Shown piece after piece: positions 19,936-40,888 of a DNA stretch of 64,000 bases. The first letter of the stretch is position 1, and every line of letters begins with the position of its first letter. Location: contig CP000070.1 in the NCBI GenBank assembly GCA_000002445.1, positions 128,001-192,000 of the forward strand, read 5' to 3'. Made by a program: the position numbers and the translations under genes. Origin of the DNA: Trypanosoma brucei (taxonomy: Eukaryota). The notes beneath the pieces were generated by a model. That model was not told where the DNA came from. It was given only the letters and a program-made list of their open reading frames with translations, and ran no database searches.

Positions 19936-19975
19936 TGTAATGATAATAATAATAATAATAATAATGGTAATAATA
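19936..19975. repeat. (AAT)n microsatellite; a second (AAT)n lies at about 20253-20275
   Basis: gataataataataataataataatggtaataat. Confidence 0.85.
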
Positions 19976-24957: not shown

Positions 24958-26958
24958 TCATTTAGACGACACTCTCCGAAGCCGTTCCTCCAACGGTAGC
25001 CTTTCAAGTCTCTGTCGCTTGCGTGCGGCATGGATTACCTTATCTGTGCTGGTAAAGTTAGTGCGGCTATCTTTCTTTGCCTCATATAACGTCACACGCC
25101 GCGACGCTCCCTCCTTTTCGCCTTCAGGACGTTGACGTCTGCGTCGTTGCTGCTTTCCACTACTCCGTACACCCTTAAGGTGTTTCTTTGCTTCGTTGAC
25201 ATCGTCCTCATTGTCCTCACCGCTATCATTATTACCACCACCATCGCTGCTGCCGCTTTCGTTCTCGCCAACATCCTCTGGAACAATAGAAAATAACTCC
25301 GATTCATATCGCTGCTTCCGTTCGCTTGCCTTTGCACGCCGCTCTTTTATCTGTTGCAGGAGCTTCGCGTATTCTGGGTTTGACGGATCTAACGCAAAAG
25401 GAGTTCCCCTACTTCCATTGAACGCCTTTTGGAATCGTGGATCAGCTTGAGCAGCAGCAAGCGCCTGATTCTTCAAAGTGGTTTTCCCATCAGTCATTGG
25501 ACCACCGTTGGCACTGTCAGCATCGCCAACTAATTCATTGTCACCCGTTTCAGCAGCATTGGCATTGCGCTTAAATTTACTAATACGATCCTCCCAGCGT
25601 TTCTCAGTTTTGCGCCTCGAGTTCTCCTGCACATAGCGGCTGAACGCTCCAGGATCAACAACGGCCTTCAGCTCACGATACAAAGCATTTTCAATAAAGG
25701 CACCATGCATGACGGGGCGAACCTTTCCCCCTGCCAAATCATCTGCCGTCATGCCAAGGTTCTCCATTTCTTCCTTGGACACAAAAGTGTAATCGTCATA
25801 GACGGTTGTTATCTCCTTCTCCTCAAGTTCTTCAGTTAAAATCTCCAGAAATGAGGCCCACCGCGGTGCCACGCCAAGCTGCGGTATGAAATGTACCTGG
25901 ACCCGAGGTGCATCACAGCAGATACAAATGACCCCACTATCACTGCACTCAAAAGGTTCCACAATGTTGTGTTGGCTGCGAAGGACACAAAAATCCGTAA
26001 TATCCGCCGGTGCCTCAATGCTAGTGAAGTTGCTTCCATCCTTCTTGCTCCACACCTTTACCATACGCGTATCAGCGGAGAGCACGTGTGTCGCCTCTCC
26101 TGTTGCAGTGCTGCTACCTTGAAAGAAGTACGTTTTGACAATAGGCAATGAGTTCATGTGATCCTTTACAATTAGCGGCTTCTGCAGTCGGAGATCATAC
26201 AAGAGCACCTGACCGGCTTCTGTCCCACAGCTAAACAGGAGGCCACGCTCATCATCTACGGCAATGTGGCGTAACTCACAACGTTCCTCAACACCTGATA
26301 CGGCTCCGGTACCTGCAACTGTTAACCGCGCTGCACATGAAGCTGCCCGGCTATCCCATGCCTCTACAACACCGTCCACACCGGCACAAAGCACGAGGCC
26401 GTGGTTTTTAAATACCTCCACGTGATTCACACCATCGGCGCACTGAGTTTTGTAGCTCTCAACGAAGGAACCAGTTTCTAAACTGAGACGAAATATTTCA
26501 TGTGATGTACCACTCGACAACAACTCAGCTGTGTGGGGATTAAATGCCAAGCACCTCATCGTGTGTGGAACACGAACACGGTCAACGATAGCCGCAGAGT
26601 GGTGAATAGTAATCTGCCGCCCCTCTCCCCGCAGCGCAAACTTACGGAAATCGGGAGAGAGTGACACCCCACCAAGTATAGGCATGTCGGCGTTGAAACT
26701 ATATTTCATGCTGAGTTGATTTACGTCAAAGCACTTTAATCGGGGCGGGTAGTCGCCAGCAGCGAATAGGTGCGTGCCATTTGCCGTTCGAAAGATTGTT
26801 CGCGCAAAGTGAGGAAATTCAAGGTCATGAATTAGTTCGACACGGTGCTCTCCCCCCGCGAGTCGCTTGTTTTTCCGTCGCTCCGCAATCCATTCCGGTA
26901 GAGACTTGCCGGCAGTGAGGTTGTAGGTTTTAACCTTGTTATGGAGCGATACCTGCAT
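24958..26958 (-). CDS. NOL10: Nucleolar protein 10 (NOL10/ENP2) homologue
   Basis: ATG verified. The N-terminus MQVSLHNKVKTYNLTAGKSLPEWIAERRK...VELIHDLEFP... matches the conserved NOL10/Enp2 start (MQVS.LN.VK.Y.L..GKSLPEW). WD-like middle region, and a C-terminal basic NUC153-like region (LDPSNPEYAKLLQQIKERR...). Confidence 0.85.
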   Translation of the reverse strand: MQVSLHNKVKTYNLTAGKSLPEWIAERRKNKRLAGGEHRVELIHDLEFPHFARTIFRTANGTHLFAAGDYPPRLKCFDVNQLSMKYSFNADMPILGGVSLSPDFRKFALRGEGRQITIHHSAAIVDRVRVPHTMRCLAFNPHTAELLSSGTSHEIFRLSLETGSFVESYKTQCADGVNHVEVFKNHGLVLCAGVDGVVEAWDSRAASCAARLTVAGTGAVSGVEERCELRHIAVDDERGLLFSCGTEAGQVLLYDLRLQKPLIVKDHMNSLPIVKTYFFQGSSTATGEATHVLSADTRMVKVWSKKDGSNFTSIEAPADITDFCVLRSQHNIVEPFECSDSGVICICCDAPRVQVHFIPQLGVAPRWASFLEILTEELEEKEITTVYDDYTFVSKEEMENLGMTADDLAGGKVRPVMHGAFIENALYRELKAVVDPGAFSRYVQENSRRKTEKRWEDRISKFKRNANAAETGDNELVGDADSANGGPMTDGKTTLKNQALAAAQADPRFQKAFNGSRGTPFALDPSNPEYAKLLQQIKERRAKASERKQRYESELFSIVPEDVGENESGSSDGGGNNDSGEDNEDDVNEAKKHLKGVRSSGKQQRRRRQRPEGEKEGASRRVTLYEAKKDSRTNFTSTDKVIHAARKRQRLERLPLEERLRRVSSK

Positions 26959-28245: not shown

Positions 28246-30165
28246 TTAGTCAACATCATCGGGGACTGGAGCGTTTCCTTCGCCCTCTCCTGAAGGAGGT
28301 GCCGGAGGTGCCTGTTCCATTGCCCGCTTTACGTAATATGCGGAGAGAATGGGGTGCGCCACCTGCTCAATTTCTTTATTCTTGGCGTCATATTCCTCCT
28401 TTGTTGCATCACGATTCTCATCAAGCCAATTTACCACAGCATTCACAACGGTTTGGATCTTCTGCTGGTCTTCTTGACTAATGTTCTGCTGGACGTCGGG
28501 GTCGCTTAGCGTAGAGCGAAGCGAAAATGTGTAGTTCTCAACGGAATTGCGTGCTTCAATCTTTTCTGCGTTTGCTCGGTCCTCTTCCGCGAATTTTTCA
28601 GCCTCCGCAACCATTTTGTCAATCTGTTCGCGTGAGAGCCGACCCTTGTCATTCGATATGGTGATGGCTTGTGTTTTACCAGCCGTCTCTTCCACAGCGG
28701 TAACAACAAGAATGCCGTCAACGTTCACGTCGAAGCTCACGGTAATCCGCGGCTTGCCGCGGGGCGCAGGGGGGATGTCAGTGAGCGTAAATGTTCCTAA
28801 GCATTGGCATTGCGACACCAAGGGGCGCTCACCCTCGTAAACTTTGATTTCAACACTGCGTTGGTTGTCAGCGTTGGTGGAAAATGTTTGCGATTTTTGT
28901 GCGGGCACGCTGGTGTTGCGCGGAATGAGCACAGACATTACACCACCGGCAGTTTCAACACCCAGTGAAAGCGGAGTCACATCGACTAGGAGAAGGTCTT
29001 TCGTTTGCTTACTTTTGCCACCAGATACGATATGAGCTTGTACCGCGGCTCCATAAGCAACCGCCTCATCAGGGTTGATTGAACGGTTCGGCTCCTTGCC
29101 GTTGAAAAAGTTCTGCACCAACTGTTGCACGCGGGGAATGCGAGTTGATCCACCGACAAGAACCACATCGTCCACTGCCGATGCATCAACCTCGGCATCT
29201 TTCAGGACCTTCCTCACTGGCTCTAGGCAGCGCTCGAATTGGTCACGGCACATCTCCTCGAACCGAGCTCGCGTTATTTTGGAGAAAAAGTCAAACCCTT
29301 CATACAGTGCATCAATCTCAATGTTGGTGCTTGCTGAACTGGAAAGTGTTCGCTTCACCCGTTCGCATGCCGTACGCAAACGCCTCATCGCACGTGCGTT
29401 TCCACGCAAATCCTTACCGGTGCGGGTTCTGAACTCAGTCGCGAAGTAATCCACAAGGCGGCTGTCAAAGTCTTCCCCACCAAGATGTGTGTCACCAGCA
29501 GTTGCCCTCACTTCAAATAAGCCACCGTCAATGTTTAGCAACGTCACATCAAAAGTACCACCTCCAAGATCAAAGATGAGCACCGTCTTCATTGCTCCTT
29601 CAGAACTTCTGTCCATGCCATACGCAATGGCTGCGGCTGTTGGTTCGTTAACGATGCGCAACACCTCAAGACCAGCAATTGATCCCGCGTCTTTTGTTGC
29701 TTGACGTTGCGAGTCGTTGAAATACGCAGGCACAGTCACGACGGCCTTTGATACCTTCTCGCCAAGGTAGGATTCCGCGATTTCCTTCATTTTCTGCAAG
29801 ACCATCGCACTTATCTCTTCGGGGAAAAAGGTTCTCCTCTCACCTTGGTACTCTACCTCCACAACCGGTTTCCCTTCCTTCACAGTTACCTTAAAGGGCC
29901 AATGTTTCATGTCAGCTTGCAGGTCTGGGTCATCATATTTTCGGCCAATTATTCGCTTGGCATCAAACACCGTATTTGTTGGGTTCATGGCCACTTGATT
30001 CTTTGCGGCATCGCCAACCAGTCGCTCAGTTTCACTGAAGGACACATAAGAAGGTGTTGTGCGGTTACCCTGATCGTTGGCGACAATTTCAACCTGATCA
30101 TTTTTGAACACACCCACGCACGAGTAAGTTGTGCCAAGATCAATGCCGATCGCCGGAGCAGGCAT
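28246..30165 (-). CDS. HSP70.4: HSP70 family chaperone; the cytosolic HSP70.4-type member of trypanosomatids
   Basis: ATG verified. Textbook HSP70 motifs: [39 protein letters not shown], a substrate-binding domain and a helical lid. The C-terminus ends ...PVPDDVD rather than EEVD. Confidence 0.95.
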
Positions 30166-30784: not shown

Positions 30785-33700
30785 CTAAAGTGAAATGTTC
30801 ACCGTACAAAGGGGTGCCTTCCGTCGTTGCTGAATGCTAAGTGTCACCCAATCCGATTTGAAGACACTCAACACCCCCACATGAGGCATGCCCCTAATAA
30901 CGCTACCACTCATGTTACTGTCGCTGTCGCCAGATGAACCACAGCCACCCGCTATTTTCCAAGCGTCTTTACCGCCTGCAACACGGGTTGACTGACCATC
31001 ACATTTAATACTCTGCTGAAACGGATCCACACCCACGGCAGTCGAACGAGATTCACTTTTCTGAGCTACTTGTTGAAGCTCACCTCGCATTTTCCCCTGA
31101 GCTTCTTGCTTTGCCCTAACCAGTTGTTCCTTCGCATTTTGGAAAACCTTTACGATGCCGCCGCGTATCTCCCCAACAAGAGCGTCTTCTTGATGTGGTT
31201 CATCTATTAGAAGAATAATCTCTTTTGTTGGAAAGACATTTCCACATCCCACGCCTCCCACAACTGCCTCTTCTGTTCCCTTTATTTGCACGAGAACGAA
31301 GTCGAGTAGTGTGTTTGGAGACTTCCGTGGGGGTATGTGGCACTTCTTTAACCCTGTGACTTCGTTAGGCCCGTGAAGTTTCTTTCCTTCACTCCCGCTT
31401 TCCCCCAGTTGGAGTGCTGCAGTTCCTTCGTTACCAATTTTCCAACACATTGCCCATTCCACAACACCTCCGCCGGTCTCGAGAACGTTCCGCATTGAGT
31501 GGGCCCTTGCGGTAACCGCTGGTGAAGCATCAGCTGCTACAATGACCAAAATAAAGTACTTATTTTCAAATAAGAGCTTCCCCGTGGCCTGCCGCTGTAG
31601 CCGCCTGTTGCGGCACTGCATGGCGAGCTGGCGAGTGCATCGTGGTGCATCCGGTGGGAGGAGCTCGGGGGTCCATTCGTGCATGGAGAGATCGTGGAGT
31701 GGCCCAAAACACTGACGGTTTTCACAATCTTCCAGAATCTTCGGGGTTACCACCCACAGCCCCGCAGCGATGGCTGCAAGGACACTTTCCCTCTGTGTTA
31801 GCTGGTGCGTTACCAAAATATCTGCCTCGCGAGTGCCGTGCACAAGTTGCACACGACTAATGACCTTTGCGGTCTCAGATGCACAATGAAGATGCTGTTG
31901 TTGAGGGCATGCCGGGCCCATAATATCGGCAGCCTCATCCTGATCCCCATCACAGTTCCTGCGGGGGGCACGACTGTTCAGCTCGTCACAAAATGCGACG
32001 AAGCAATCCTTCCCCGGGACATCATGCGGAATATAAATGCGTGGAGCGTCGAAAATAATTTTTGAGCGTTGTTTCGACACAACACCAGCAGCCGCGGAGG
32101 GCAAAGCCAGTCGCTTATCAATAACAGCGTCACTGCTCCTACTTCCCTCGGGATCCCACAGCTGCGGCATCTCCTGAACTTCTCTGGAATACTTTCTACC
32201 AACGGAAGTCAGCGGGCCATGATCGACTACAGATCCACCATCACATGGTTTGTTGTGGCGGTTCTCATCACCAGCTCTCAAGAGGTGACTATCAGCTGCC
32301 TTTAGTTCATTTTCCTCGTCGTCGCTAACGTCACCCAACAAAAGGGTGCGGCGAACGGGTGTGCACGCGTTCGCACTACTTGGGCTGTTATCCGCCATAT
32401 TTTCCTCAAGTCTTGCTGGCGTGTTAGACTTCCCCCGTGATAAACCACATAGAAAGCCAATGGGGGGAAACGTCTCCTCATCTCCCACCAAAGCCGCTTT
32501 AACATGGGCAGAAGGCGATGCAAACCGGGGTGTGCTGGCACGTTGCTGCCCGGGGGTGCGCAATGTAGCCCGAGCTGGCGTAGCACCTGGCGTTGTAAAA
32601 TCGAATTGGTAGTTGACAGCAAGTTGCGGTGACTGGAAAACCGGGCTGTGGCATGTTGCGCTACTGAATGGGAGTAGCGTCACGTCAGTTTCTCGTACTG
32701 GTGTAGCGGGTGGCGTCACGGCAGAGTAAACTAGGGGCCCACCAATGACGGTTTCACCTTCAACCGCCCTATTTTCCTTGTGTGGTTGCTGACGAGTGAG
32801 TGTCGTTGGTAAGGCAAAAGGTTTCTCATCAAGAAAAGTGCCCCATGCCACACTAGCCTCCAGCCATTCCAACCCGACTAATGAGACACGATCGGATGCA
32901 GCATACTGTACTAACCTTTGCGGTAGCAATTCCTGGTGCACCTCACAAGGCCACGTGCTACCGCGGGAGAGTAGTGCATCCATACTTTTTCGCTCATCCA
33001 CATCGCCCGTCCTAAAGCAGCAGCGAATGTCAGAAACTGCTGACGAGCCACCCACCGCCACCTCGTCCACAACCTGGGGGATTTTAGAAAGAAAAATGGT
33101 TGCAACATCCACAAGCACAACATGCGTGACAGCTTCCAGCACCAACTTCTCCGCTCGGTGACCACATAGTTCGCTAACAGCAGCACCAAGGCAGTTCAAA
33201 AGTACCCGACGAAGCGCAGTCAGCGTCTCAAACCCCTGATCGTCAATAACGCATCCTTGTTGTCCTGATTTAGAGGGCATCAGACATAAAAAGTACACAG
33301 TTACACCGATGAGTGGAGCTTTTTCATTCCGGCGGCGGCCAAGCCACGGTGATGGTGCTAAGGGCATCCCTCCTTTGGTGGTGACATCACCACGGCGCAA
33401 TAACTGCTGCCGTGCCAGTCGCTCCGCCTCTGTAGGTGTTGATCTATAAAAAAGAAAGCAACTTTTGGGTTGTAATAGGTGACGTGCCGCCAGCGAGCAC
33501 AAAATGTAGTCTTGCGTGACGCTCGGAAGAAAGCGAAACGGGTGGCGAGCGGGGGCGGTATCTGCTTGCCGTTGGTTCCTTCCGAGCAGTAGCACATCGG
33601 AAGGTTTCTGATTTCCATGCGGCACGACATAAAAAACGTGATGAAATGGTCCCGCAGGTCTAGTACCATTTGAAGGGGTGTCAACGTTACCAGGTTTATC

Positions 33701-35998
33701 GGATCGGGCTAGCGTAGTTGTTTCGCCTGCTGCTCGAGAAACCTTCCTGTGTGAAAATGATCCCGCATCATGCGCACGGATCAGCTTCCTGTACGCTGAT
33801 GTGAAGTAGTGAATCATCGATGTGATATTGTCCTCACGCGGTTCATTTTCCTTCACCCCAGTACATTCCTTTTCCCCTTCACCGGCACCGGCTCCTGTAC
33901 GGGACAGCACCTTGACCCACTCGTTGAGGGATCTTTTTGTCCATTCACCTTTACCGTATTTGATCAGTGCGCGGACGATATTGAGATCAACGCGTGAAAA
34001 GTCGTTCTCAACGAAACAAAAGAAGGACTTAGTGAATACAGGACGGCACTCTTCGTCATCAGAAGAGCCCTTTAGCAGTACGTATAGCTCGTTGAATTTC
34101 TGCACCGCAAGACTTGCGTCCGCTTCGTAACGTTTCCTTGCATCATCAACTGACTTTGACGACGTTGTTACGGCTTTGTCGTGTTGACGACCACCACTCT
34201 CAGCAGTTGTCGCTTGGTTATTTGTTGGGTTGTTTCTCGGTCGAGGTCGAAGAACGGCTCGATTCACCTTCCCTTGCTGAAGTTGCTGTTGTTGCCGATC
34301 AAAATCCATAAACGCTGCCATGTTCGTCAAGGGTTGAAGGCTGAACATACCAGTCGTCGGAAGTTTCTCCAAGGGAAGTGGAACCGGCTCAAATATTAAA
34401 TCTTCCGCTTCATGACCAGAAGAGGCACTCATCTGCGCTGCCACCTGACAACACTCTCGGAGCCAACCTACCGTTACAATGCGTTCTACCGGGATTCCAT
34501 ATGTCACACTCAGGTGGTCACGCAGCTGCGCAAGCAGCATGGCTTTCTGCTTTTGGTCCTCACTTGCGACCGCAGCCATACGTGTTGCCTCTTTTATGTC
34601 TTCGTCCACCAGTTCGCTGCCTACCACGACCACATCTGTGAAGGGTGTGACAACGGGTGTGCGCAGAAAACGACAGCGTACGGCCATACGTGCACAATCC
34701 ACTAACTGCGGCGGAGTACAACCTAATAGTGATATCTGCAGGAAAGGTCGACTATGTGTAAAGAATGTTTCACAAAAGTCAAATATGTCCTTGTCACCAT
34801 TGCTCCGACTTGCCTCCAGAGAGGTAGAGCTAGTCATACAGTTTTGAAGTCGCACCTCACCGGTCATACCGCTGTTGGTTGGAATGGGATGAGGGTCAGC
34901 AACGGAAGAAAATGGATTCAGCGTTGCACCACTCGTTGAAAGGTGAAGCGGGGGCGGCGCATCCAGCACTGCGTTTTCATCCCCCATTGGAAAACCCGTT
35001 GCACAGCACTCACTTCCAGTGTGCGAAGTATTCCATGTTCCAAACAACTTCTGCGAAGTGCTCAAATGATGGCTACCCGTTGCTTGTCTTTCGGGGGACA
35101 CTATTCTGATTGCACGCTGCGAATCATCACTAGACAAAGCACTATTGCATTCATCGCGGGCCCTCTTCCTGTACGGTTTGTTGTCGATATCCACCACTAC
35201 ATGTCCCGCGACGGATGTTGCTGCATTCCCTACGGAACCGGCAACCTGCGTATGCGGCACCACACCACCAACAACAGAGCTTGGTAGTGCACAAAGTTCG
35301 GCGATCGTCTCGAAGTCAGTACGAGATAAGCCAGCATCGCAACCGTTGGAGTTTCCACCCAAACAGGTGCTTTGCAGTGCAGCCAATGAAAGGAAACGCG
35401 TGTGCTCTACAACAGGGATATTGGTGGCCCATGCAAAACGAATTTTTTCTGGGAGAATCGGTCCGGCCGCAGCACCGTCACGCATTGCTGTTGAGGGACG
35501 ACCGTGTTTCTGCTGTAATTGTTGGAACTGCTTCAACCAATCGGGGGAAACAAAAAGCATGGAAATACACGCCGAGAGTGTTCGACTAAAGGTTCCGCCA
35601 TTACTTTCGATGATAGAAGTGAGAGCTCTTTCCTCGTCCACAGTCAACTGCGTTGCGCAGAAAACATAACCATGAAGAAGAGGCACACGACAGTCACTAA
35701 TGGGAAGGCGGCCATGTGATTCCAACCACCGCAATGACACGACAGGTATCGACTGCTGCTCCGCTACAAGGCGTTTACGAGTAAGTCCTCGCCCAGCGAC
35801 AAGAATGGTTGTCCGTTTTGTGATGCGCGTCTGCGTTTTTGCCCCAAGCGAAGAAGCGAGATTCGTTACCTGGCGAAGTGACACTGCCCCACTCATCTCC
35901 CCGTTTGCGGGTGCCGCTGTTACAGTACTAACTGCATCGTCCTCGTCGACTTCATCGGAGAATCCAGAGAAACACACATAGTGACCAGAGAGAGCCAT
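30785..35998 (-). CDS. Large (about 1738 aa) BRCT-domain protein with BRCT domains at both the N- and C-terminus; a putative DNA-damage/replication scaffold
   Basis: N-terminal BRCT: MALSGHYVCFSGFSDEVDEDD...ITKRTTILVAGRGLTRKRLVAEQQSIPVVSLRWLESH. C-terminal BRCT-like: VQLVHGTREADILVTHQLTQRESVLAAIAAGLWVVTPKILEDC. I favour the start at 35998 (ATG verified) over the track start at 36163, because the polyY tract (36112-36150) lies between the two ATGs. Confidence 0.7.
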   Translation of the reverse strand: MALSGHYVCFSGFSDEVDEDDAVSTVTAAPANGEMSGAVSLRQVTNLASSLGAKTQTRITKRTTILVAGRGLTRKRLVAEQQSIPVVSLRWLESHGRLPISDCRVPLLHGYVFCATQLTVDEERALTSIIESNGGTFSRTLSACISMLFVSPDWLKQFQQLQQKHGRPSTAMRDGAAAGPILPEKIRFAWATNIPVVEHTRFLSLAALQSTCLGGNSNGCDAGLSRTDFETIAELCALPSSVVGGVVPHTQVAGSVGNAATSVAGHVVVDIDNKPYRKRARDECNSALSSDDSQRAIRIVSPERQATGSHHLSTSQKLFGTWNTSHTGSECCATGFPMGDENAVLDAPPPLHLSTSGATLNPFSSVADPHPIPTNSGMTGEVRLQNCMTSSTSLEASRSNGDKDIFDFCETFFTHSRPFLQISLLGCTPPQLVDCARMAVRCRFLRTPVVTPFTDVVVVGSELVDEDIKEATRMAAVASEDQKQKAMLLAQLRDHLSVTYGIPVERIVTVGWLRECCQVAAQMSASSGHEAEDLIFEPVPLPLEKLPTTGMFSLQPLTNMAAFMDFDRQQQQLQQGKVNRAVLRPRPRNNPTNNQATTAESGGRQHDKAVTTSSKSVDDARKRYEADASLAVQKFNELYVLLKGSSDDEECRPVFTKSFFCFVENDFSRVDLNIVRALIKYGKGEWTKRSLNEWVKVLSRTGAGAGEGEKECTGVKENEPREDNITSMIHYFTSAYRKLIRAHDAGSFSHRKVSRAAGETTTLARSDKPGNVDTPSNGTRPAGPFHHVFYVVPHGNQKPSDVLLLGRNQRQADTAPARHPFRFLPSVTQDYILCSLAARHLLQPKSCFLFYRSTPTEAERLARQQLLRRGDVTTKGGMPLAPSPWLGRRRNEKAPLIGVTVYFLCLMPSKSGQQGCVIDDQGFETLTALRRVLLNCLGAAVSELCGHRAEKLVLEAVTHVVLVDVATIFLSKIPQVVDEVAVGGSSAVSDIRCCFRTGDVDERKSMDALLSRGSTWPCEVHQELLPQRLVQYAASDRVSLVGLEWLEASVAWGTFLDEKPFALPTTLTRQQPHKENRAVEGETVIGGPLVYSAVTPPATPVRETDVTLLPFSSATCHSPVFQSPQLAVNYQFDFTTPGATPARATLRTPGQQRASTPRFASPSAHVKAALVGDEETFPPIGFLCGLSRGKSNTPARLEENMADNSPSSANACTPVRRTLLLGDVSDDEENELKAADSHLLRAGDENRHNKPCDGGSVVDHGPLTSVGRKYSREVQEMPQLWDPEGSRSSDAVIDKRLALPSAAAGVVSKQRSKIIFDAPRIYIPHDVPGKDCFVAFCDELNSRAPRRNCDGDQDEAADIMGPACPQQQHLHCASETAKVISRVQLVHGTREADILVTHQLTQRESVLAAIAAGLWVVTPKILEDCENRQCFGPLHDLSMHEWTPELLPPDAPRCTRQLAMQCRNRRLQRQATGKLLFENKYFILVIVAADASPAVTARAHSMRNVLETGGGVVEWAMCWKIGNEGTAALQLGESGSEGKKLHGPNEVTGLKKCHIPPRKSPNTLLDFVLVQIKGTEEAVVGGVGCGNVFPTKEIILLIDEPHQEDALVGEIRGGIVKVFQNAKEQLVRAKQEAQGKMRGELQQVAQKSESRSTAVGVDPFQQSIKCDGQSTRVAGGKDAWKIAGGCGSSGDSDSNMSGSVIRGMPHVGVLSVFKSDWVTLSIQQRRKAPLCTVNISL

Positions 35999-36111
35999 GT
36001 AAAATTGTCTATGGCCCTTCTCCGCTTTATGTTCTCCCCTGTCCTCCTTTTGATTTTGTTTTATTTTTTGGCAGGTGTCCTTTGGCCCTGAACAAGCACA
36101 CGCGCGACTTT

Positions 36112-36150
36112 GCGAGAAAAAAATTAAGAAAGAAGGATTGCTGAAGCGAT
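36112..36150 (-). promoter_or_regulatory. Polypyrimidine tract (minus strand) between the two candidate ATGs of the BRCT gene; it favours the ATG at 35998 as the start
   Basis: Purine-rich plus strand: gcgagaaaaaaattaagaaagaaggattgctgaagcga. Confidence 0.4.
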
Positions 36151-36529
36151 GCGGTTCCCCCATGTGCGAATAAAGTTATGTTACTCAACGTAAAAGATGA
36201 TAGAGACGATCATATCACGCTGCAGTTGAAACTGTTCGCAGGTGGGTCATACTTAACAAATTTCATCAATAAACAAAAGCTGGGGGTTTTATTATTATTA
36301 TGGAAAATTGAAAAGAAAACGTAAACAAATCGCGTGAAAGGAGGGCCTCTCGGATAACGGAACGTAGCACGCCTGGAAGAAAGGATTAGCCTCTCCTTGT
36401 CCACATGCACGGACATTTTTCTAATAAACGTGTATGATCACCCCCCCCCCTCGTTGCTGTTGGAGCTTATTGTTGGAAGGGATGGGAGGGGGGTCTCGCT
36501 CTTCCCATCAATCTATTCATACACCTCTA

Positions 36530-38356
36530 TCAGTTTCTCGGTGGGATAAATATATCACCGTCGTCATCCTCGTCGTCACTACCGGTGAAATTGGTCACAC
36601 TTACGTCTCGCCACATCTCAGGATCACTGATGCCTTCGTGAGAGGTGTTTGAAGTAAAGGCCCGCGGTGCATCATTCCCGGAAGCACGTCGATTGTTGTT
36701 GGTTCCATTAGCCACCGCCTCGTTGCTGTCTTCTTCACCAGTTTCTGAACTTGTCAGCTCAGCATCGTCGTTGATGTTTCCAACATTGTCATTATCAATA
36801 AAGATTCGATTATCCCGCCCTTGATCGTTGTAACGTTCCACATGTGCTCCAGAAGCCGAGAGTCTGACCGTTTCGGACGCTCCTAAGCCCCCGTGAGCGG
36901 CGAGCCCCAGTGTTTCACGGAACTCCCGGAGGCGCCTCATGTGTTGGTCTCTCTCCTCTTGTTTCATCAGTAATAGCTCCTTTTTTTCGGCCTCATCTCC
37001 TCCACGGGCCCACGCCGTTACAAGGCGCCGCTCACCGTCGAAAACTGGTCGGTCATCCAGATGAAACAATTTGCTGCAGCGCGCGAGTACGGTCTTTCGA
37101 TACCGCGGAATGGTTCTCACGAGGGGATTACCAGACAGCTTCAAGGCCCTCAGACGATACATTCGCTCCAATACGAGAAGAACTGCCTCACCATCGGCAA
37201 GTTGGTTGTTGCTGAGGTCCAGTACCGAAAGGTTCTTGTAGCACAGTAGCTGAATTATGTCGTTCGCTGCGGTGAGATAATTACAAGCTAGATTTAGTGT
37301 ACGGAGGGAACTACAGGGAGTGCGATACTCGTCAGGGACCTCACTAAGAGGTTTGCCATCTTCTAGCGGATCCAGTGGTTTATGCGGACAGAAGGAGGCA
37401 TATGCATCCAATCGTTTGCACCATGCCTCCAAGTTCCCATCCCTCCCGGGGTCATTAACTGCGTTTCCGACATCACAACCGTCACCGCTAACCTTTTCAT
37501 TGATATGTATCCCTTCTTCTTGCGTTACTTCTGGACTGCCGGTGGCATCCTCGGTTATCTCGTCGGATTGCTGCTGCAACAACTTCCCCCCGGTGGGAGA
37601 ACTATTCAGTTCGCGCTGCATGCTCTTGGAGTTGGCCACAATAGCATTAGCCTTCGTGGTCAGCTCCTCCTCGTATTGCGCAGCCTTTTTATCGAAAGGC
37701 GCACAGGAGACTTCGACAGAGCGAATACAGTTGCTGGATAAGTTAACGGAGTCCAGAAACTGAAACGAACTTAAGTCTGGCATACGTCGCAATGCGTTGT
37801 TATGCAAATACAACTGGCGCAGCGTCGGGTAGAGAGATTGAAACACGTCCTTGGTGGCCCTTCCCGCGTTACATGACGACTTGGTGGCAGTCGACTTAAA
37901 AGCAAGCGCCGCGGCGCCATCGGTTTTACTATTTATACCATATTCTGCCGACCTCACGCACCCTGCAGCACCCGAGGAATCCACCTGAGATCTTTCCAAC
38001 CAGTCCGCACAGCAATCCAAGTGGGCACTTTTGGACATAACCTGTGTCGTGTCAGTAGCGCTCGCTTCCGTATACGCGTTCACCTCTTCTTCAGTTCCTG
38101 CACCCTGCCCCTCCGCCTGCACATTGCATGGTTGGCTATCTTTCCCGCAATGAATAACAGTGAAGGCATTGCCCTCCAACCAAAGCACCTTCACATCCGT
38201 GTAAGGATCAAAGGCACCCTCTTCAATACTATCAAATCCCTTATTGTGCAGGTAAAGCTTTTCATTACATACTGGGTTGCGGTAAAATCCAGTCTTGACA
38301 CAAATGCGCTTTATGACATCGGTTGTGATGGTCGTGGAGAGTGAATTTTCCGTCAT
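36530..38356 (-). CDS. DNAAF1: Dynein axonemal assembly factor 1 (DNAAF1/LRRC50/ODA7) homologue; a leucine-rich-repeat protein
   Basis: The ORF-track start at 38401 is TTG; the first ATG is at 38356 (MTENSLST...). N-terminal LYLHNKGFDSIEEGAF...VLWLEGNAF and LRR block ...LDLSNNQLADGEAVLLVLERMYRLRALKLSGNPLVRTIPRYRKTVLARCSKLFHLDDRPVF...AWARGGDEAEKKE are collinear with human DNAAF1 (...LDLSHNKLSD...LNLMGNPV...YRRTV...LDDRPVF...AWARGG..AEKEE). Confidence 0.8.
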   Translation of the reverse strand: MTENSLSTTITTDVIKRICVKTGFYRNPVCNEKLYLHNKGFDSIEEGAFDPYTDVKVLWLEGNAFTVIHCGKDSQPCNVQAEGQGAGTEEEVNAYTEASATDTTQVMSKSAHLDCCADWLERSQVDSSGAAGCVRSAEYGINSKTDGAAALAFKSTATKSSCNAGRATKDVFQSLYPTLRQLYLHNNALRRMPDLSSFQFLDSVNLSSNCIRSVEVSCAPFDKKAAQYEEELTTKANAIVANSKSMQRELNSSPTGGKLLQQQSDEITEDATGSPEVTQEEGIHINEKVSGDGCDVGNAVNDPGRDGNLEAWCKRLDAYASFCPHKPLDPLEDGKPLSEVPDEYRTPCSSLRTLNLACNYLTAANDIIQLLCYKNLSVLDLSNNQLADGEAVLLVLERMYRLRALKLSGNPLVRTIPRYRKTVLARCSKLFHLDDRPVFDGERRLVTAWARGGDEAEKKELLLMKQEERDQHMRRLREFRETLGLAAHGGLGASETVRLSASGAHVERYNDQGRDNRIFIDNDNVGNINDDAELTSSETGEEDSNEAVANGTNNNRRASGNDAPRAFTSNTSHEGISDPEMWRDVSVTNFTGSDDEDDDGDIFIPPRN

Positions 38357-39244
38357 ACTTCGGTTGCTCTTCCAACCGATGGCAAGGTTGTTAGGCTCCA
38401 ACGGGAAGATGCACTCTTCCTATCACCCACTCCCCCTATATGTAGCGGCCGCTCCTTCACACTCGGTGAATGAAGAAAGCAGTGAATGGCTAAATAATAG
38501 TGATAATAGTCTTTCAAGTAGGTGCTAGTGATGCTATGGTAGTATCAGTACCTCAGTGTGTTAGCTTTTTTTTTAACCTTTTGGTATTGTGTGATCTAAA
38601 TGTCTTCACACTAGAGGGTTCTGCTCCCTTGTGTGTGTTTGGTCGGAGGAGCGAATCCAACGACGGTAACGCAGCAGCGGCGGAGTAACGAGGCGATAGT
38701 CAAAATAAACAAAAGCAAAATATAACGAGTGAGCAAACCACGTACCGATGCACATCTGCGCAAGTGGTGGCATAGAACGGAATTAAAAGGTGAAGTCAAA
38801 CGTCAGCGAATGGCAAGTGGCAAATGGGGAAAAGAAGAGTAACTCCCCTCGCCCTAATGTATTCGAAAACAGAAGAAGAAAAAAGGGGAAAAGAACCTCC
38901 CCTGAGGAACTCTCCGGCAGCTAACACGCGAGTCGCTTATGTCACAACGCTGTAGACCCCATGCGGAAATGCGTTTGCACCAACAACTTGTGTGTGTGAG
39001 AGAGAGGAAACATACGTGAAGTGCTCGGATATATCCCCCCGACGGTTCACCTTTAAAAGAAATGTGTGATGTTTCTAACGATAGCATACTGATATGTGAC
39101 GCGTCATGCACATGCATAGGTGATGTCCGGCCTCCAAAAATGGGTTGCTGTGCAGCTTTTGTCATGAATAAATACAAAAGAGACGCTCCCCCTAAACAAA
39201 AGATAAAACAAACGCCCCTCCCCCTGTCTTTCCCAATAGAATAC

Positions 39245-40888
39245 TTAACCACCTTCACCTCGTTTCTGCTGTTGATAATAATCTCTGAGGGAATTCATTA
39301 GAGCGTCCATGGTTTGCTTATTAGCACCTTTGTACGACTGGCCGTAAGTTATGAATATTTCAGCCAGTGCCTGCAAGGCTTCAAGTCGCTGTCGCCGCTC
39401 CTCTTCGGGTACCTGATGATCCAGTAGAAGAGACGTTGCCACCCACCGAGCTGTGCTCTCCAATTCCTCAACGGAGGTGTACCAGGCCAAATCCACCATT
39501 GTAGCAGAATCCCTAAGAGTGTGTTGGCGGATGCGGCACAAGTGGCGCCATTTGTCAAGGCGTCGACGCATACGATGCGGCCCCGCCTCGTTTAAATACA
39601 GAGTCATTCTCTCCCTTGGTCCAGACGCTTTGCCGTACAGCACCACACGCATGTACTCATGACCCACCGCATGCAGAACCTCGCGCGCAAGACCCGTGTT
39701 AAGTAACCGTTGCAAGCGTCCCTTGAGTTCCTGAAGCGCAGGCGCGCCCTTGCTGTCCTTCTCGCTCCGTAGAGGTTGCAAGTAAACGCTAAGCAACTCA
39801 TCGCGACACCGTTCCAGCGTGCGCTGCCTGAAAATAGCAAGCTCTTCCTGTGTCCAGTCAAGTCCATCAATTACACGTTGCGAAAAGCTCCCTGTCTTAA
39901 CGTCACCCACTATGGCATACAGAGCGTCACCACCAAATAGGGCCCGAACAGCACCACGCTTCTTCTTACCTATGTCCTCTACCCCACTTCTCCCACCCAT
40001 ATCATACTTACGGCGCTTCTCCGCGTTACCAAGAACACGGTATGCTTTGGTTAAAACGTCAAACTGAGACGCTGCTGATTGGCTTGGATTCCTGTCAGGG
40101 TGAATTTCAAGAGCAAGACGATTGTAAGCCTCTTTGATTTGCTGCGGTGTTGCGTCCCGTGTAACACCTAGAATTGCATAGTAATCGTCACCTTCACTAG
40201 GGTGTGTACCTCCCTTTCGTTCATACCCTACATCTCGCTTGCCCCGGCGCTTGCGACGCGTTTCCCGCTTCATTGCCCGCTCGAACAGTTTTTCCGGTGG
40301 TGCCTGAAGTGAGAGAAGTGGATGGGAATTGCCAACAACACCAGAGGGGTACTCATATCTGCAGGAGAGTTCATTCCAGCAGCAACCTGGGCAAAACAGG
40401 TAAAATATGGGCGCCCTCAACGTGTGAACGCCGCATAGCAGCATCTGTTGCACAGCCGCGTACCATGCAATGGCCATAAAAACAGCTCCCCAGAACAACC
40501 CAACACCTGGGGCAATGACTAAAGCCGCTGGTCTCAAGCCTCGCAACCGTATCGCCTCAAGGGATACGGAAAGCGCCAGTAACGGCGAAACGAGAAAAGA
40601 AAGCGTTATATTAAGGGCAGCCCCACCCACAGCCCTCACTATATTCCTCGTTGGGCGTGTTGAAAGGATCACACGCCCCTCATCACCTTCTTCCTCACAG
40701 CGCCGCTTCAGAAATGCAACTTCCTCCTCCGTTATTAGCGTGAAAACCCTGCGATCGCCTTCTGGTCGGACAAAGGAGGAAAGCCACCATCCTTTACCAC
40801 TGGTGCGCCGTGCTTGGAGCGGGATGTGTTGCGTCACCGCGGTCAACTGCTGAAGAATGAGCCGCCTGGCTGTTAGTCCACTTGACAT
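39245..40888 (-). CDS. Membrane J-protein: N-terminal transmembrane helices, a DnaJ (J) domain and a C-terminal DnaJ-X domain
   Basis: ATG verified. J domain DYYAILGVTRDATPQQIKEAYNRLALEIHPDRNP...LTKAYRVLGNAEKRRKYD (HPD). DnaJ-X-like start RALFGGDALYAIVGDVK. Hydrophobic helices upstream (LVIAPGVGLFWGAVFMAIAWYAAV). Confidence 0.8.
   Translation of the reverse strand: MSSGLTARRLILQQLTAVTQHIPLQARRTSGKGWWLSSFVRPEGDRRVFTLITEEEVAFLKRRCEEEGDEGRVILSTRPTRNIVRAVGGAALNITLSFLVSPLLALSVSLEAIRLRGLRPAALVIAPGVGLFWGAVFMAIAWYAAVQQMLLCGVHTLRAPIFYLFCPGCCWNELSCRYEYPSGVVGNSHPLLSLQAPPEKLFERAMKRETRRKRRGKRDVGYERKGGTHPSEGDDYYAILGVTRDATPQQIKEAYNRLALEIHPDRNPSQSAASQFDVLTKAYRVLGNAEKRRKYDMGGRSGVEDIGKKKRGAVRALFGGDALYAIVGDVKTGSFSQRVIDGLDWTQEELAIFRQRTLERCRDELLSVYLQPLRSEKDSKGAPALQELKGRLQRLLNTGLAREVLHAVGHEYMRVVLYGKASGPRERMTLYLNEAGPHRMRRRLDKWRHLCRIRQHTLRDSATMVDLAWYTSVEELESTARWVATSLLLDHQVPEEERRQRLEALQALAEIFITYGQSYKGANKQTMDALMNSLRDYYQQQKRGEGG

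What the first reader, a model, noticed from the sequence alone, without database searches (positions are those of the whole stretch)
30785..36163. Giant protein with BRCT domains at both ends; start codon ambiguity
A roughly 1740-aa protein carries a BRCT fold at the N-terminus (HYVCFSGF...TTILVAGRGLTRKRL...VVSLRWLESH) and another at the C-terminus (ADILVTHQLTQRESVLAAIAAGLWVVTPKIL), separated by about 1400 aa of Ser/Pro/Ala-rich sequence. This architecture is typical of DNA-damage and replication checkpoint scaffolds (TopBP1/Dpb11, Rtt107/PTIP type), which are poorly defined in kinetoplastids. The ORF track begins at the ATG at 36163, but a polyY tract (36112-36150) lies between that ATG and the ATG at 35998, so the shorter form (start MALSGHYVCF) is more consistent with trans-splicing.
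Basis: partly seen in the sequence, partly recalled or inferred. Interest (0 to 1): 0.5.

Follow-up and report, generated by a model that had tools for sequence, protein, structure and literature searches.

The report
Trypanosome TopBP1-like multi-BRCT scaffold protein
This Trypanosoma brucei gene encodes a very divergent, uncharacterised relative of TopBP1, the multi-BRCT scaffold that other eukaryotes use to start DNA replication and to signal DNA damage; it is an ordinary conserved gene, but a useful handle on a poorly understood trypanosome pathway.

Summary

The "1400 aa Ser/Pro/Ala-rich spacer" is wrong. The middle holds three conserved blocks with BRCT hallmarks, a conserved cluster of Ser/Thr-Pro sites and several short motifs. 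A compact relative from the early-branching kinetoplastid Papus matches only TopBP1 among 5.8 billion proteins, and does so in three separate regions in the same order.

The short start (ATG 35998) is supported: six orthologues start there, and T. cruzi has an in-frame stop upstream. Spliced-leader data were not available.

Verdict: a divergent kinetoplastid TopBP1 orthologue that lacks BRCT0 and BRCT6 and has an atypical BRCT7 pocket. Function is inferred. It is a new member of a known kind, of moderate interest.

The parts
30785..35998 (-). Coding sequence in the preferred short form: 1737 aa plus stop, starting MALSGHYVCF.
   Evidence: Orthologues start at this Met. The T. equiperdum annotation is 1737 aa. 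T. cruzi has an in-frame stop upstream of its equivalent Met.
35999..36163 (-). 55-codon upstream in-frame extension from ATG 36163. It is probably 5' UTR or intergenic rather than coding.
   Evidence: It is absent from all orthologues outside the T. brucei group. It contains the pyrimidine tract. T. b. gambiense differs here by a 1-codon indel inside that tract.
36108..36137 (-). Pyrimidine tract (36137-36114, TCCTTCTTTCTTAATTTTTTTCTC) and the first downstream AG (36109/36108). This is the candidate spliced-leader acceptor and would give a 109-nt 5' UTR.
   Evidence: Other, shorter tracts with AG sites lie upstream (AG 36374/36373 and AG 36281/36280), so which site is used is not shown.
35714..35998 (-). 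BRCT 'N1' (ORF residues 56-150), equivalent to TopBP1 BRCT1. It has an acidic insertion between strand 1 and helix 1. S66 and K130 occupy the phosphate-pocket Ser/Thr and Lys positions.
   Evidence: Pfam PTCB-BRCT E 2.5e-8 and BRCT E 1.2e-6. hhalign against a TopBP1 alignment gives 99.2%. The best of nine TopBP1 BRCTs is BRCT1. K130 aligns to TopBP1 K155.
35378..35686 (-). BRCT 'N2' (ORF residues 160-262), equivalent to TopBP1 BRCT2, with a 28-aa Gln-rich insertion. T171 and K240 align to TopBP1 T208 and K250.
   Evidence: Pfam BRCT_2 E 4.9e-4 and BRCT E 7.2e-4. hhalign results. The best of nine TopBP1 BRCTs is BRCT2, at 97.4%.
35246..35323 (-). Conserved short motif RTDFETIAELCALPSSVVGGVVPHTQ (ORF residues 281-306); function unknown.
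   Evidence: 15 invariant positions across 8 Trypanosoma sequences.
35153..35173 (-). Basic YRKRARD stretch (ORF residues 331-337), which looks like a nuclear localisation signal.
   Evidence: Read from the sequence. Most orthologues have a basic run such as RKRPR, KRPR or RKRCR here. The NLS reading is inference only.
34439..34762 (-). Block 'M3' (ORF residues 468-575): probable BRCT, positionally equivalent to TopBP1 BRCT3.
   Evidence: Conserved block ending in the ...IPVERIVTVGWLRECC hallmark. The hhalign block-by-domain matrix gives BRCT3 as best, at 83.7%. Pfam BRCT is E 0.09 on the Papus orthologue. There is no usable structure model.
34067..34135 (-). Conserved predicted helix KRYEADASLAVQKFNELYVLLKG (ORF residues 677-699), just upstream of M4. 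It is a speculative counterpart of the GINS-binding helix that sits between TopBP1 BRCT3 and BRCT4.
   Evidence: Conservation. It is helical in the low-confidence model. The position is analogous to the GINI helix described in PMC10899662. No sequence similarity was shown.
33449..34030 (-). Block 'M4' (ORF residues 712-905): probable BRCT with a roughly 90-aa insertion.
   Evidence: On the orthologous blocks, Papus gives Pfam BRCT_2 E 8.9e-4 and LIG3_BRCT E 3.9e-3, and P0028 gives BRCT_2 E 8.8e-3. The junction of M4 and M5 in Papus matches the TopBP1 BRCT4/5 structure 3UEN at E 6e-4. The hhalign matrix reaches only 36%.
32825..33316 (-). Block 'M5' (ORF residues 950-1113): probable BRCT, forming a pair with M4.
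   Evidence: Hallmarks VTHVVLVD and VSLVGLEWLEASVAWGTFLDE. hhalign against TopBP1 BRCT domains gives 93.2%, with BRCT3 the best match. Pfam BRCT_2 is E 0.032 on P0028 and LIG3_BRCT is E 0.01 on P0019.
32354..32725 (-). Conserved cluster of Ser/Thr-Pro sites (ORF residues 1147-1270) in a linker without BRCT signal. It includes TDVTLLPF, YQFDFTTPGATP and TLRTPGQQR.
   Evidence: 12 of the protein's 24 S/T-P sites fall in residues 1100-1300. Eight of these (1150-1268) are conserved in 4-6 of 6 other Trypanosoma species.
32144..32170 (-). MPQLWDPEG motif (ORF residues 1332-1340), a speculative aromatic element like that of an ATR-activation domain.
   Evidence: Found in T. brucei, T. cruzi, T. melophagium, T. 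rangeli and P0005. The regex did not find it in T. vivax or T. congolense, and only a WNP was found in P0013. The resemblance to the fish TopBP1 stretch 'VWDDPTAREE' (P0035) was judged by eye only.
31712..32047 (-). BRCT 'C6' (ORF residues 1373-1484), equivalent to TopBP1 BRCT7.
   Evidence: In the AlphaFold model the ordered parts have pLDDT 70-90 and the b1-a1-b2-b3-a2-b4-a3 order. The best of nine TopBP1 BRCTs is BRCT7, at 92.8%. A Ser occupies the position of TopBP1 K1317.
31568..31711 (-). Helical linker between the two C-terminal BRCTs (ORF residues 1485-1532).
   Evidence: Helices 125-131 and 144-163 of the model. It aligns to the TopBP1 BRCT7-8 linker.
30794..31567 (-). BRCT 'C7' (ORF residues 1533-1790), equivalent to TopBP1 BRCT8, with three long low-confidence insertions.

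Best explanation
The gene encodes the kinetoplastid orthologue of TopBP1 (Dpb11/Rad4/Cut5 family), a nuclear adaptor made mostly of BRCT domains.

Shown here:
- A BRCT1-BRCT2 pair at the N-terminus that keeps the phosphate-pocket Ser/Thr and Lys residues.
- A canonical tandem BRCT at the C-terminus that is closest to TopBP1 BRCT7/8.
- Three conserved central blocks with BRCT hallmarks.
- A conserved cluster of Ser/Thr-Pro sites in the linker before the C-terminal pair.
- Conservation of the whole layout, and of gene order, across kinetoplastids.

Inferred:
- As in other eukaryotes, the N-terminal pair probably reads phosphorylated partners, for example the Rad9 tail of the 9-1-1 clamp or a CDK-phosphorylated origin-firing factor.
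- The central and C-terminal BRCTs probably dock further partners, so that the protein bridges factors at replication origins and at stalled forks or breaks.
- The Ser/Thr-Pro linker probably makes this bridging depend on the cell cycle.

Translation most likely starts at ATG 35998, downstream of a spliced-leader acceptor near 36108.
For: Identity and conservation:
- The ORF is 100% identical to TREU927 XP_845696.1.
- Orthologues are 34-42% identical across Trypanosoma.
- The gene order DnaJ-LRR-BRCT-HSP70-NOL10 is the same in T. cruzi.
- An exhaustive HMMER search of 1.84 billion representatives found only 26 relatives. Most are laid out in the same order as the T. brucei protein, and they include 2200-3350-aa forms.

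Link to TopBP1:
- The 978-aa relative from Papus ankaliazontas hits only TopBP1, apart from itself, among 5.8 billion proteins (E 1e-23 to 8e-7).
- The Papus protein matches solved TopBP1 fragments in three regions in the same order: BRCT1-2 (E 6e-11), BRCT4/5 (E 6e-4) and BRCT7/8 (E 1e-9).
- A kinetoplastid-wide profile with T. brucei as master, searched against the PDB, gives TopBP1 BRCT0-2 at E 9e-14, TopBP1 BRCT7/8 at E 1.2e-10 and fission-yeast Rad4 at E 1e-6.
- hhalign against a TopBP1 alignment gives 99.2% (E 8e-20) for BRCT1-2 and 60% (E 9e-5) for BRCT7-8.
- With Trypanosoma sequences only, the values are 91% and 44%. A reversed-sequence control reaches only E 0.5.
- In the block-by-domain matrix, five of seven blocks are best matched by the TopBP1 BRCT in the same position.

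Structure and pockets:
- K130 and K240 align to TopBP1 K155 and K250. Those lysines are the ones that bind phosphate (PMC6175577).

Start codon.
Against: - No direct functional, localisation or interaction data were obtained.
- Sequence identity to TopBP1 is low. With Trypanosoma sequences alone the PDB search is not significant (E 0.16), so the link leans on the Papus intermediate and on profile-profile and fold comparison.
- The central blocks lack structural support. The AlphaFold model of residues 455-1125 failed (pLDDT 35), and its Foldseek hits are all at E >= 1.
- M4 and M5 do not map cleanly onto BRCT4 and BRCT5.
- SLF1 matches the C-terminal pair about as well as TopBP1 does by sequence.
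- BRCT0 and BRCT6 are absent.
- The BRCT7-type pocket lacks the Lys, which is a Ser here, and in Trypanosoma appears to lack the Ser as well.
- No convincing ATR-activation domain was found. A review also calls this domain poorly conserved in the putative trypanosomatid homologue (PMC8377203).
- The reverse search, TopBP1 against the T. brucei proteome, could not be run.
Confidence: 0.75

Rival explanations
1. It is a lineage-specific multi-BRCT adaptor that shares individual BRCT modules with TopBP1 but is not its functional orthologue. Two examples: a reader of phosphorylated histone H2A like PTIP, Brc1, Rtt107 or MDC1; or a recruiter of the SMC5/6 complex like SLF1, acting through the C-terminal tandem.
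For: - BRCT domains are promiscuous, and the middle of the protein is only loosely assignable.
- BRCT0, BRCT6 and a clear ATR-activation domain are missing.
Against: - The N-terminal pair is specifically like TopBP1/Rad4/ECT2. Neither the T. brucei-master profile nor the Papus protein gave a PTIP, Rtt107, Brc1 or SLF1 hit in that region.
- Matches to three TopBP1 regions fall in the same order.
- All non-self hits of the Papus orthologue are TopBP1.
- There are no ankyrin repeats or other SLF1 features.
- PTIP reaches only E 1e-3, and on one domain.
- The pocket of the C-terminal pair lacks the canonical Lys that the H2A readers use.
Confidence: 0.17
2. The annotated long form is the real protein: translation starts at ATG 36163 and adds 55 residues at the N-terminus.
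For: - ATG 36163 is in frame, with no stop before 35998.
- The TREU927 and T. b. gambiense annotations use it.
- Shorter pyrimidine tracts with AG sites lie further upstream (AG 36374/36373 and 36281/36280). If one of them were used, ATG 36163 would be inside the mRNA.
Against: - The extension is not found in any species outside the T. brucei group.
- It is a translation of a pyrimidine tract and A-rich sequence.
- It varies by an indel within that tract between subspecies.
- T. cruzi cannot encode an extension, because it has an in-frame stop 138 nt upstream.
- The T. equiperdum annotation uses the short form.
- If splicing occurred at 36281/36280, the mRNA would also carry upstream ATGs at 36266, 36250 and 36213.
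Confidence: 0.1

Closest known systems
[quoted passage not shown]
   Same: - A long adaptor built of many BRCTs.
- An N-terminal BRCT1-2 pair that keeps the pocket Lys residues matching K155 and K250.
- Central BRCTs.
- A linker rich in phosphorylation sites.
- Domain order that corresponds along the whole length.
   Different: - No BRCT0, because the protein starts at BRCT1.
- No detectable BRCT6.
- Large insertions in N1, N2, M4 and C7.
- A Ser at the position of K1317 in the BRCT7 pocket.
- No recognisable ATR-activation domain or GINS-binding helix by sequence.
- Only about 15-25% identity within the aligned domains.
Rad4/Cut5 (S. pombe) and Dpb11 (S. cerevisiae), the fungal TopBP1 orthologues
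   Same: Like them, this protein starts directly with BRCT1-2 and has no BRCT0. The kinetoplastid profile hits the Rad4 BRCT1-2 structure (4BMC) at E 1e-6. P0028 hits it at E 2.6e-8.
   Different: From established knowledge, the fungal proteins have only four BRCTs and lack the C-terminal BRCT7/8-type tandem. This protein has about seven BRCTs and is 2-3 times longer.
SLF1 (SMC5-SMC6 complex localization factor 1; 8IR2/8IR4)
   Different: From established knowledge, the SLF1 tandem is at the N-terminus and is followed by ankyrin repeats. No ankyrin or other SLF1 feature was found here, and SLF1 has nothing like the BRCT1-2 pair.
PTIP/PAXIP1, Brc1 and Rtt107 (six-BRCT gamma-H2A(X)-binding scaffolds)
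   Different: Fold and sequence scores are lower than for TopBP1: PTIP reaches E 1e-3 against 1e-9. There is no similarity in the N-terminal half, and the pocket Lys is missing.

Membership tests
TopBP1 / Dpb11 / Rad4(Cut5) | An N-terminal BRCT1-BRCT2 pair homologous to that of TopBP1/Rad4. | tested here: met
   - hhalign gives 99.2%, E 8e-20, for short-form residues 43-204 against TopBP1 124-269.
- With Trypanosoma sequences only it gives 91%.
- The profile against the PDB gives 6HM5 at E 9e-14, 2XNH at E 1e-10 and Rad4 4BMC at E 1e-6.
TopBP1 / Dpb11 / Rad4(Cut5) | Phosphate-binding residues in BRCT1 (Thr114, Arg121, Lys155) and in BRCT2 (Lys250 and the strand-1 Thr). | tested here: met
   - ORF K130 aligns to K155, T171 to T208 and K240 to K250.
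- K130, T171 and K240 are invariant in 8 Trypanosoma sequences. S66 is Ser or Thr in all of them and sits in the CF(S/T)GF motif.
- The Arg of the triad could not be placed with confidence.
- Residue roles are taken from PMC6175577.
TopBP1 / Dpb11 / Rad4(Cut5) | A second set of BRCTs after the first pair (TopBP1 BRCT3 and BRCT4/5; Rad4/Dpb11 BRCT3/4). | tested here: inconclusive
   - M3 is best matched by BRCT3 at 83.7%. M5 matches a BRCT at 93.2%, but the best domain is BRCT3. M4 reaches only 36%.
- The M4/M5 junction in Papus hits the TopBP1 BRCT4/5 structure 3UEN at E 6e-4.
- Sub-threshold Pfam BRCT hits occur on the orthologous blocks.
- The AlphaFold model failed.
TopBP1 / Dpb11 / Rad4(Cut5) | A C-terminal canonical tandem, BRCT7/8. 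This is present in metazoan TopBP1 and absent from the yeast proteins. | tested here: met
   - The AlphaFold model has pTM 0.60.
- Foldseek gives 9MAT, 3AL3 and 3AL2 at E 4.5e-8 to 1.1e-7.
- A block HMM hits only the BRCT7/8 region of TopBP1, at iE 9e-10.
TopBP1 / Dpb11 / Rad4(Cut5) | The BRCT7 phosphate pocket (Ser1273 and Lys1317 in human TopBP1; these residue numbers are from my own knowledge). | tested here: not met
   - hhalign places the Ser of the invariant QRES motif at the Lys position of RNEK.
- By my manual alignment, Trypanosoma has Pro-His where TopBP1 has Ser-Ser at the end of strand 1, whereas Papus keeps a Ser.
- The Arg of QRES might substitute for the Lys; this was not tested.
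TopBP1 / Dpb11 / Rad4(Cut5) | BRCT0 and BRCT6, which are metazoan additions and not present across the whole family. | tested here: not met
   - The protein begins 4 residues before BRCT1 strand 1. Even the long form adds only 55 aa.
- No BRCT signal was found between M5 and C6 by Pfam on T. brucei or by profile comparison. That stretch is 27-30% S+P+A.
TopBP1 / Dpb11 / Rad4(Cut5) | An ATR/Mec1-activation domain with a critical aromatic residue in an unstructured region. | tested here: inconclusive
   The only candidate is MPQ(Q/L)WDPE at ORF residues 1332-1340. It is conserved in 5 of 7 Trypanosoma sequences but not beyond them. Its resemblance to the fish TopBP1 stretch 'VWDDPTAREE' (P0035) was judged by eye. 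A review states that this domain is poorly conserved (PMC8377203).
TopBP1 / Dpb11 / Rad4(Cut5) | A GINS-binding (GINI) helix between BRCT3 and BRCT4. | not testable with these tools
   A conserved helix at ORF residues 677-699 sits in the right place. GINI regions share little sequence even between TopBP1 and Dpb11 (PMC10899662). A test needs complex modelling or binding assays.
TopBP1 / Dpb11 / Rad4(Cut5) | Reciprocal best-match orthology. | tested here: inconclusive
   In the forward direction, the non-self hits of the Papus orthologue among 5.8 billion proteins are all TopBP1. The reverse search, TopBP1 against the T. brucei proteome, was not possible with these tools.
TopBP1 / Dpb11 / Rad4(Cut5) | Function: required for origin firing and checkpoint signalling, and binds phosphorylated Rad9 and Sld3/Treslin. 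| not testable with these tools
   No experimental data were reachable. Reviews say the putative trypanosomatid homologue has not been investigated (PMC8377203, PMC7783291, PMC12677790).
PTIP / Brc1 / Rtt107 | Six BRCTs, with a C-terminal BRCT5/6 tandem as the closest relative of the query's C-terminal pair, and an N-terminal module related to PTIP or Rtt107. | tested here: not met
- PTIP 3SQD reaches E 1e-3 on one domain only, against 1e-9 for TopBP1.
- There is no PTIP, Rtt107 or Brc1 hit to the N-terminal pair.
SLF1 | An N-terminal tandem BRCT followed by ankyrin repeats. | tested here: not met
   The tandem is similar, but here it lies at the C-terminus. Pfam finds no ankyrin repeats. An additional TopBP1-type BRCT1-2 pair is present.

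The most novel reading that the evidence does not exclude
The conserved linker between M5 and the C-terminal tandem (ORF residues about 1147-1340) is the regulatory heart of the protein. It holds eight conserved Ser/Thr-Pro sites, the YQFDFTTP motif and the WDPE aromatic motif.

On this reading the CDK-type sites are read in cis or in trans by the protein's own BRCT pockets. The 'CDK substrate' role that Sld2 and Sld3 play in yeast would then be merged with the Dpb11-type 'reader' in one polypeptide. The aromatic motif would be the missing ATR activator in a lineage for which the reviews read here report no ATRIP or ETAA1 homologue.
Probability: 0.12. Interest if true: 0.7.

Novelty: new member of a known kind. 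Interest (0 to 1): 0.4.

Why it matters
Trypanosomatid replication initiation and ATR signalling are missing several canonical parts. The reviews read here report no ATRIP, ETAA1 or Chk1 homologues, and to my knowledge no Sld2 or Sld3/Treslin has been identified.

Reviews mention a 'putative TopBP1 homologue' that has never been studied. No paper in the searchable library gives its gene identity.

This work fixes a specific T. brucei gene, XP_845696.1 on chromosome 7. It also supplies a domain map, the probable true start codon, pocket residues to mutate (K130 and K240) and candidate regulatory motifs.

That makes two questions directly testable by tagging, depletion and point mutation: how origins fire, and how ATR is activated in these parasites. 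The divergence from human TopBP1 (no BRCT0 or BRCT6, an altered BRCT7 pocket) is also relevant to selective inhibition.

Tried and rejected
- The word-indexed homologue search, run with the full protein and then with the full alignment, returned only Trypanosoma sequences. Low-complexity words probably filled the candidate list. The exhaustive HMMER search was needed to reach distant orthologues.
- Pfam on the T. brucei segments M3, M4, M5 and C7 gave nothing, and on C6 only E 0.27.
- The Trypanosoma-only profile against the PDB was not significant (E 0.16).
- hhalign between blocks of the same protein was uninformative. Even the two proven BRCTs, N1 and N2, did not match each other.
- HMMER block profiles of M3, M4 and M5 against TopBP1 were not significant.
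- The AlphaFold model of the 671-aa middle region failed (pLDDT 35). Its Foldseek hits are all at E >= 1, although most are BRCT domains, so I did not count them as evidence.
- The afdb50 fold library was unavailable.
- The TriTrypDB gene id could not be fixed. Searches for Tb927.7.700.720.1010.1020 and .1040 found no papers, and Tb927.7.1000 is PIF8.
- Genois et al. 2014, which lists the putative TopBP1, is not held in the library.
- The cap on papers stopped me reading the T. brucei DNA-damage and cell-cycle phosphoproteome papers and the RNAi cell-cycle screen paper.
- Rejected: a PTIP/Rtt107-type identity and an SLF1 identity (see the membership tests).
- Rejected: the antisense ORF at 35145-35669 as a gene. 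It is only a mechanical ORF inside a conserved coding sequence.


Full report
Numbering. Residue numbers are those of the 1792-aa ORF that begins at ATG 36163. Subtract 55 for the short form that begins at ATG 35998.

1. The observation

The minus strand carries one uninterrupted ORF from 36163 to 30785, of 1792 codons. Its product is 100% identical to T. b. brucei TREU927 XP_845696.1 / UniProt Q57VR8, on the 2.2-Mb chromosome 7. It is 99% identical to the T. b. gambiense protein. Both are annotated only as 'hypothetical protein, conserved' or 'BRCT domain-containing protein'.

Orthologues of 1715-1804 aa exist in T. cruzi, T. c. marinkellei, T. rangeli, T. melophagium and T. vivax, and one comes from an unnamed assembly. 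They are 34-42% identical. The gene order DnaJ - LRR protein - this gene - HSP70 - NOL10 is the same in T. cruzi. This is a real, conserved gene.

Pfam on the whole protein gives BRCT E 1.4e-12, PTCB-BRCT E 1.4e-8 and BRCT_2 E 6.4e-6. On segments, these hits resolve into two adjacent BRCTs, N1 (56-150) and N2 (160-262). So the N-terminal BRCT is confirmed, and it is a pair.

The quoted string is therefore the second half of the first unit (C6, 1373-1484). A second BRCT (C7, 1533-1790) follows it and carries three long disordered insertions.

The description of the middle as about 1400 aa of Ser/Pro/Ala-rich sequence does not hold. S+P+A is 12-30% per 100 residues and about 23% overall. The alignment shows strongly conserved blocks at 468-575 (M3), 712-905 (M4) and 950-1113 (M5), plus short motifs at 281-306 and 1147-1217.

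2. What it is

Only 26 proteins among 1.84 billion representatives match a profile of the C-terminal 1200 residues. A full-length profile matches most of them in the same block order as the T. brucei protein. They include forms of 2200-3350 aa, which I take to be from other trypanosomatids, although the sources give no names.

They also include compact forms of 978-1453 aa. One of these, P0029 (978 aa), comes from the early-branching kinetoplastid Papus ankaliazontas. Its BRCTs are much more canonical: Pfam BRCT E 1.3e-32.

This Papus protein is the bridge to known families.
- Against solved structures it matches TopBP1 in three separate regions in the same order.
  - Residues 6-168 match BRCT1-2 (6HM5/2XNH, E 6e-11 to 7e-9).
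  - Residues 508-580 match the BRCT4/5 junction (3UEN/6RMM, E 6e-4).
  - Residues 751-886 match BRCT7/8 (3AL2, E 1e-9).

The T. brucei protein also links to TopBP1 more directly.
- An 11-sequence kinetoplastid profile with T. brucei as first sequence hits TopBP1 BRCT0-2 at E 9e-14. It hits TopBP1 BRCT7/8 at E 1.2e-10, fission-yeast Rad4 BRCT1-2 at E 1e-6 and ECT2 at E 1e-6.
- Profile-profile comparison with an alignment of six TopBP1 sequences gives 99.2% (E 8e-20) for N1-N2 against BRCT1-2. It gives 60% (E 9e-5) for C6-C7 against BRCT7-8.
- With Trypanosoma sequences alone the values are 91% and 44%. A reversed-sequence control gives nothing better than E 0.5.
- I also built a matrix of the seven kinetoplastid blocks against the nine TopBP1 BRCTs. 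Best partners that keep the positional order are:
  - N1 to BRCT1 (96%).
  - N2 to BRCT2 (97%).
  - M3 to BRCT3 (84%).
  - C6 to BRCT7 (93%).
  - C7 to BRCT8 (17%).
- The other two blocks do not map cleanly. M5 matches a BRCT at 93%, but BRCT3 is the best domain. M4 reaches only 36%.

Evidence that M3-M5 are BRCT folds is weaker.
- They carry BRCT hallmarks in the alignment, for example ...IPVERIVTVGWLRECC, VTHVVLVD and VSLVGLEWLEASVAWGTFLDE.
- Orthologous blocks give sub-threshold Pfam BRCT hits: M4 E 8.9e-4 and 8.8e-3, M5 E 0.01-0.03, and M3 E 0.09.
- The hhalign values are given above.
- The AlphaFold model of residues 455-1125 failed (pLDDT 35). Its Foldseek hits are BRCT domains, but all at E >= 1. 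I do not count that as evidence.

3. Details relevant to mechanism

In N1 and N2 the residues that align to the phosphate-binding Lys155 and Lys250 of TopBP1 are lysines, K130 and K240. The strand-1 Ser/Thr positions are S66 and T171. K130, T171 and K240 are invariant in Trypanosoma, and S66 is Ser or Thr in all of them. The roles of these residues are taken from PMC6175577. This is the basis for proposing that the N-terminal pair reads phosphopeptides as in TopBP1/Rad4.

In C6 the invariant motif QRES puts a Ser where TopBP1 has Lys1317. By my manual alignment, Trypanosoma also lacks the strand-1 Ser. The C-terminal pair may therefore bind its ligand in an unusual way.

There is no room for BRCT0, and no BRCT signal lies between M5 and C6.

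That linker instead holds 12 of the protein's 24 Ser/Thr-Pro sites. Eight of them are conserved in 4-6 of 6 other species. They are embedded in the conserved motifs TDVTLLPF, YQFDFTTPGATP and TLRTPGQQR.

Three further elements are leads only.
- MPQ(Q/L)WDPE at 1332-1340 resembles the aromatic core of the TopBP1 ATR-activation domain, by eye only. It is conserved in 5 of 7 Trypanosoma sequences and not beyond them.
- A conserved helix at 677-699 sits where TopBP1 has its GINS-binding helix, but shows no similarity to it.
- YRKRARD at 331-337 looks like a nuclear localisation signal.

4. Start codon

A 24-nt pyrimidine tract (36137-36114) followed by AG at 36109/36108 lies between the two in-frame ATGs. 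Splicing there would give a 109-nt 5' UTR.

The points in favour of ATG 35998 are these.
- All six orthologues outside the T. brucei group begin at the Met equivalent to 35998.
- In T. cruzi an in-frame stop lies 138 nt upstream of that Met with no ATG between them. A long pyrimidine tract plus AG lies 196 nt upstream.
- The T. equiperdum annotation uses the 1737-aa form.
- The 55-aa extension is the translation of the pyrimidine tract and A-rich sequence. It differs between subspecies by an indel inside the tract.

Shorter tracts with AG sites exist further upstream, so use of ATG 36163 is not excluded. I put it at about 10%.

5. Comparison with what is known

The best-supported reading is a divergent orthologue of TopBP1/Rad4/Dpb11.
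- It shares the BRCT1-2 reader pair, the central BRCTs and the BRCT7/8-type tandem.
- Like the fungal proteins, it lacks BRCT0.
- Like metazoan TopBP1, it has the C-terminal tandem.
- It lacks BRCT6, a canonical BRCT7 pocket and a recognisable ATR-activation domain.

SLF1 is an equally good match for the C-terminal pair alone, but nothing else fits. PTIP, Brc1 and Rtt107 score lower everywhere.

In the literature, reviews state that a putative trypanosomatid TopBP1 homologue was listed in 2014 but has never been investigated, and that its ATR-activation domain is poorly conserved (PMC8377203, PMC7783291). A 2025 Leishmania paper says there are no reports of TOPBP1 (PMC12677790). No paper in the searchable library pairs TopBP1 with a Tb927 gene identifier. 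The 2014 review is not held, so I cannot tell whether it lists this gene.

6. Verdict

This is a real gene. The description of the middle was wrong. The short start is favoured.

It is a new, very divergent and uncharacterised member of a known kind. Its function in origin firing and checkpoint signalling is inferred from homology only. Interest is moderate (0.4). The finding is not surprising, but it gives a concrete, mutable entry point into trypanosome replication and ATR biology.

Noticed in passing
window 56451-57592 (inside ORF 56357-60907, minus strand): A tandem repeat of 102 bp in 11.2 copies, 99% identical, which would be a 34-aa repeat. It lies within a 1516-aa ORF. The plus-strand ORF at 56328-58142 that overlaps it is probably an artefact of the repeat.
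   Followed up: no
window 18000-22000: A low-GC stretch (GC 0.37-0.40, against about 0.48 elsewhere) with strong positive AT skew (up to +0.26). No ORF of 250 aa or more lies between 18455 and 21658. It may be a long UTR or intergenic region.
   Followed up: no
whole window: All ORFs of 250 aa or more lie on the minus strand except the ORF over the repeat noted above. This is consistent with one polycistronic transcription unit. Neighbours of the gene are a FYVE protein (21658-23193), NOL10 (24958-26958), HSP70 (28246-30165), an LRR protein (36530-38401) and a DnaJ/DnaJ-X protein (39245-40888). The order DnaJ-LRR-BRCT-HSP70-NOL10 is kept in T. cruzi.
   Followed up: partly
window 35145-35669 (+): An antisense ORF of 174 aa with a TTG start lies inside the BRCT gene. 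It is a mechanical ORF opposite conserved coding sequence, with no evidence that it is a gene.
   Followed up: no
window 36440-36495 (gene strand): The intergenic region upstream of the gene, probably the 3' UTR of the LRR gene, contains a C-rich tract (CCCCCCTCCCATCCCTTCC) and a run of ten G about 30 nt apart. Significance unknown.
   Followed up: no
orthologues P0014-P0018 and P0020: Some kinetoplastid orthologues are 3000-3350 aa, nearly twice the T. brucei length. The same conserved blocks are separated by much longer linkers. The source organisms are not named.
   Followed up: partly
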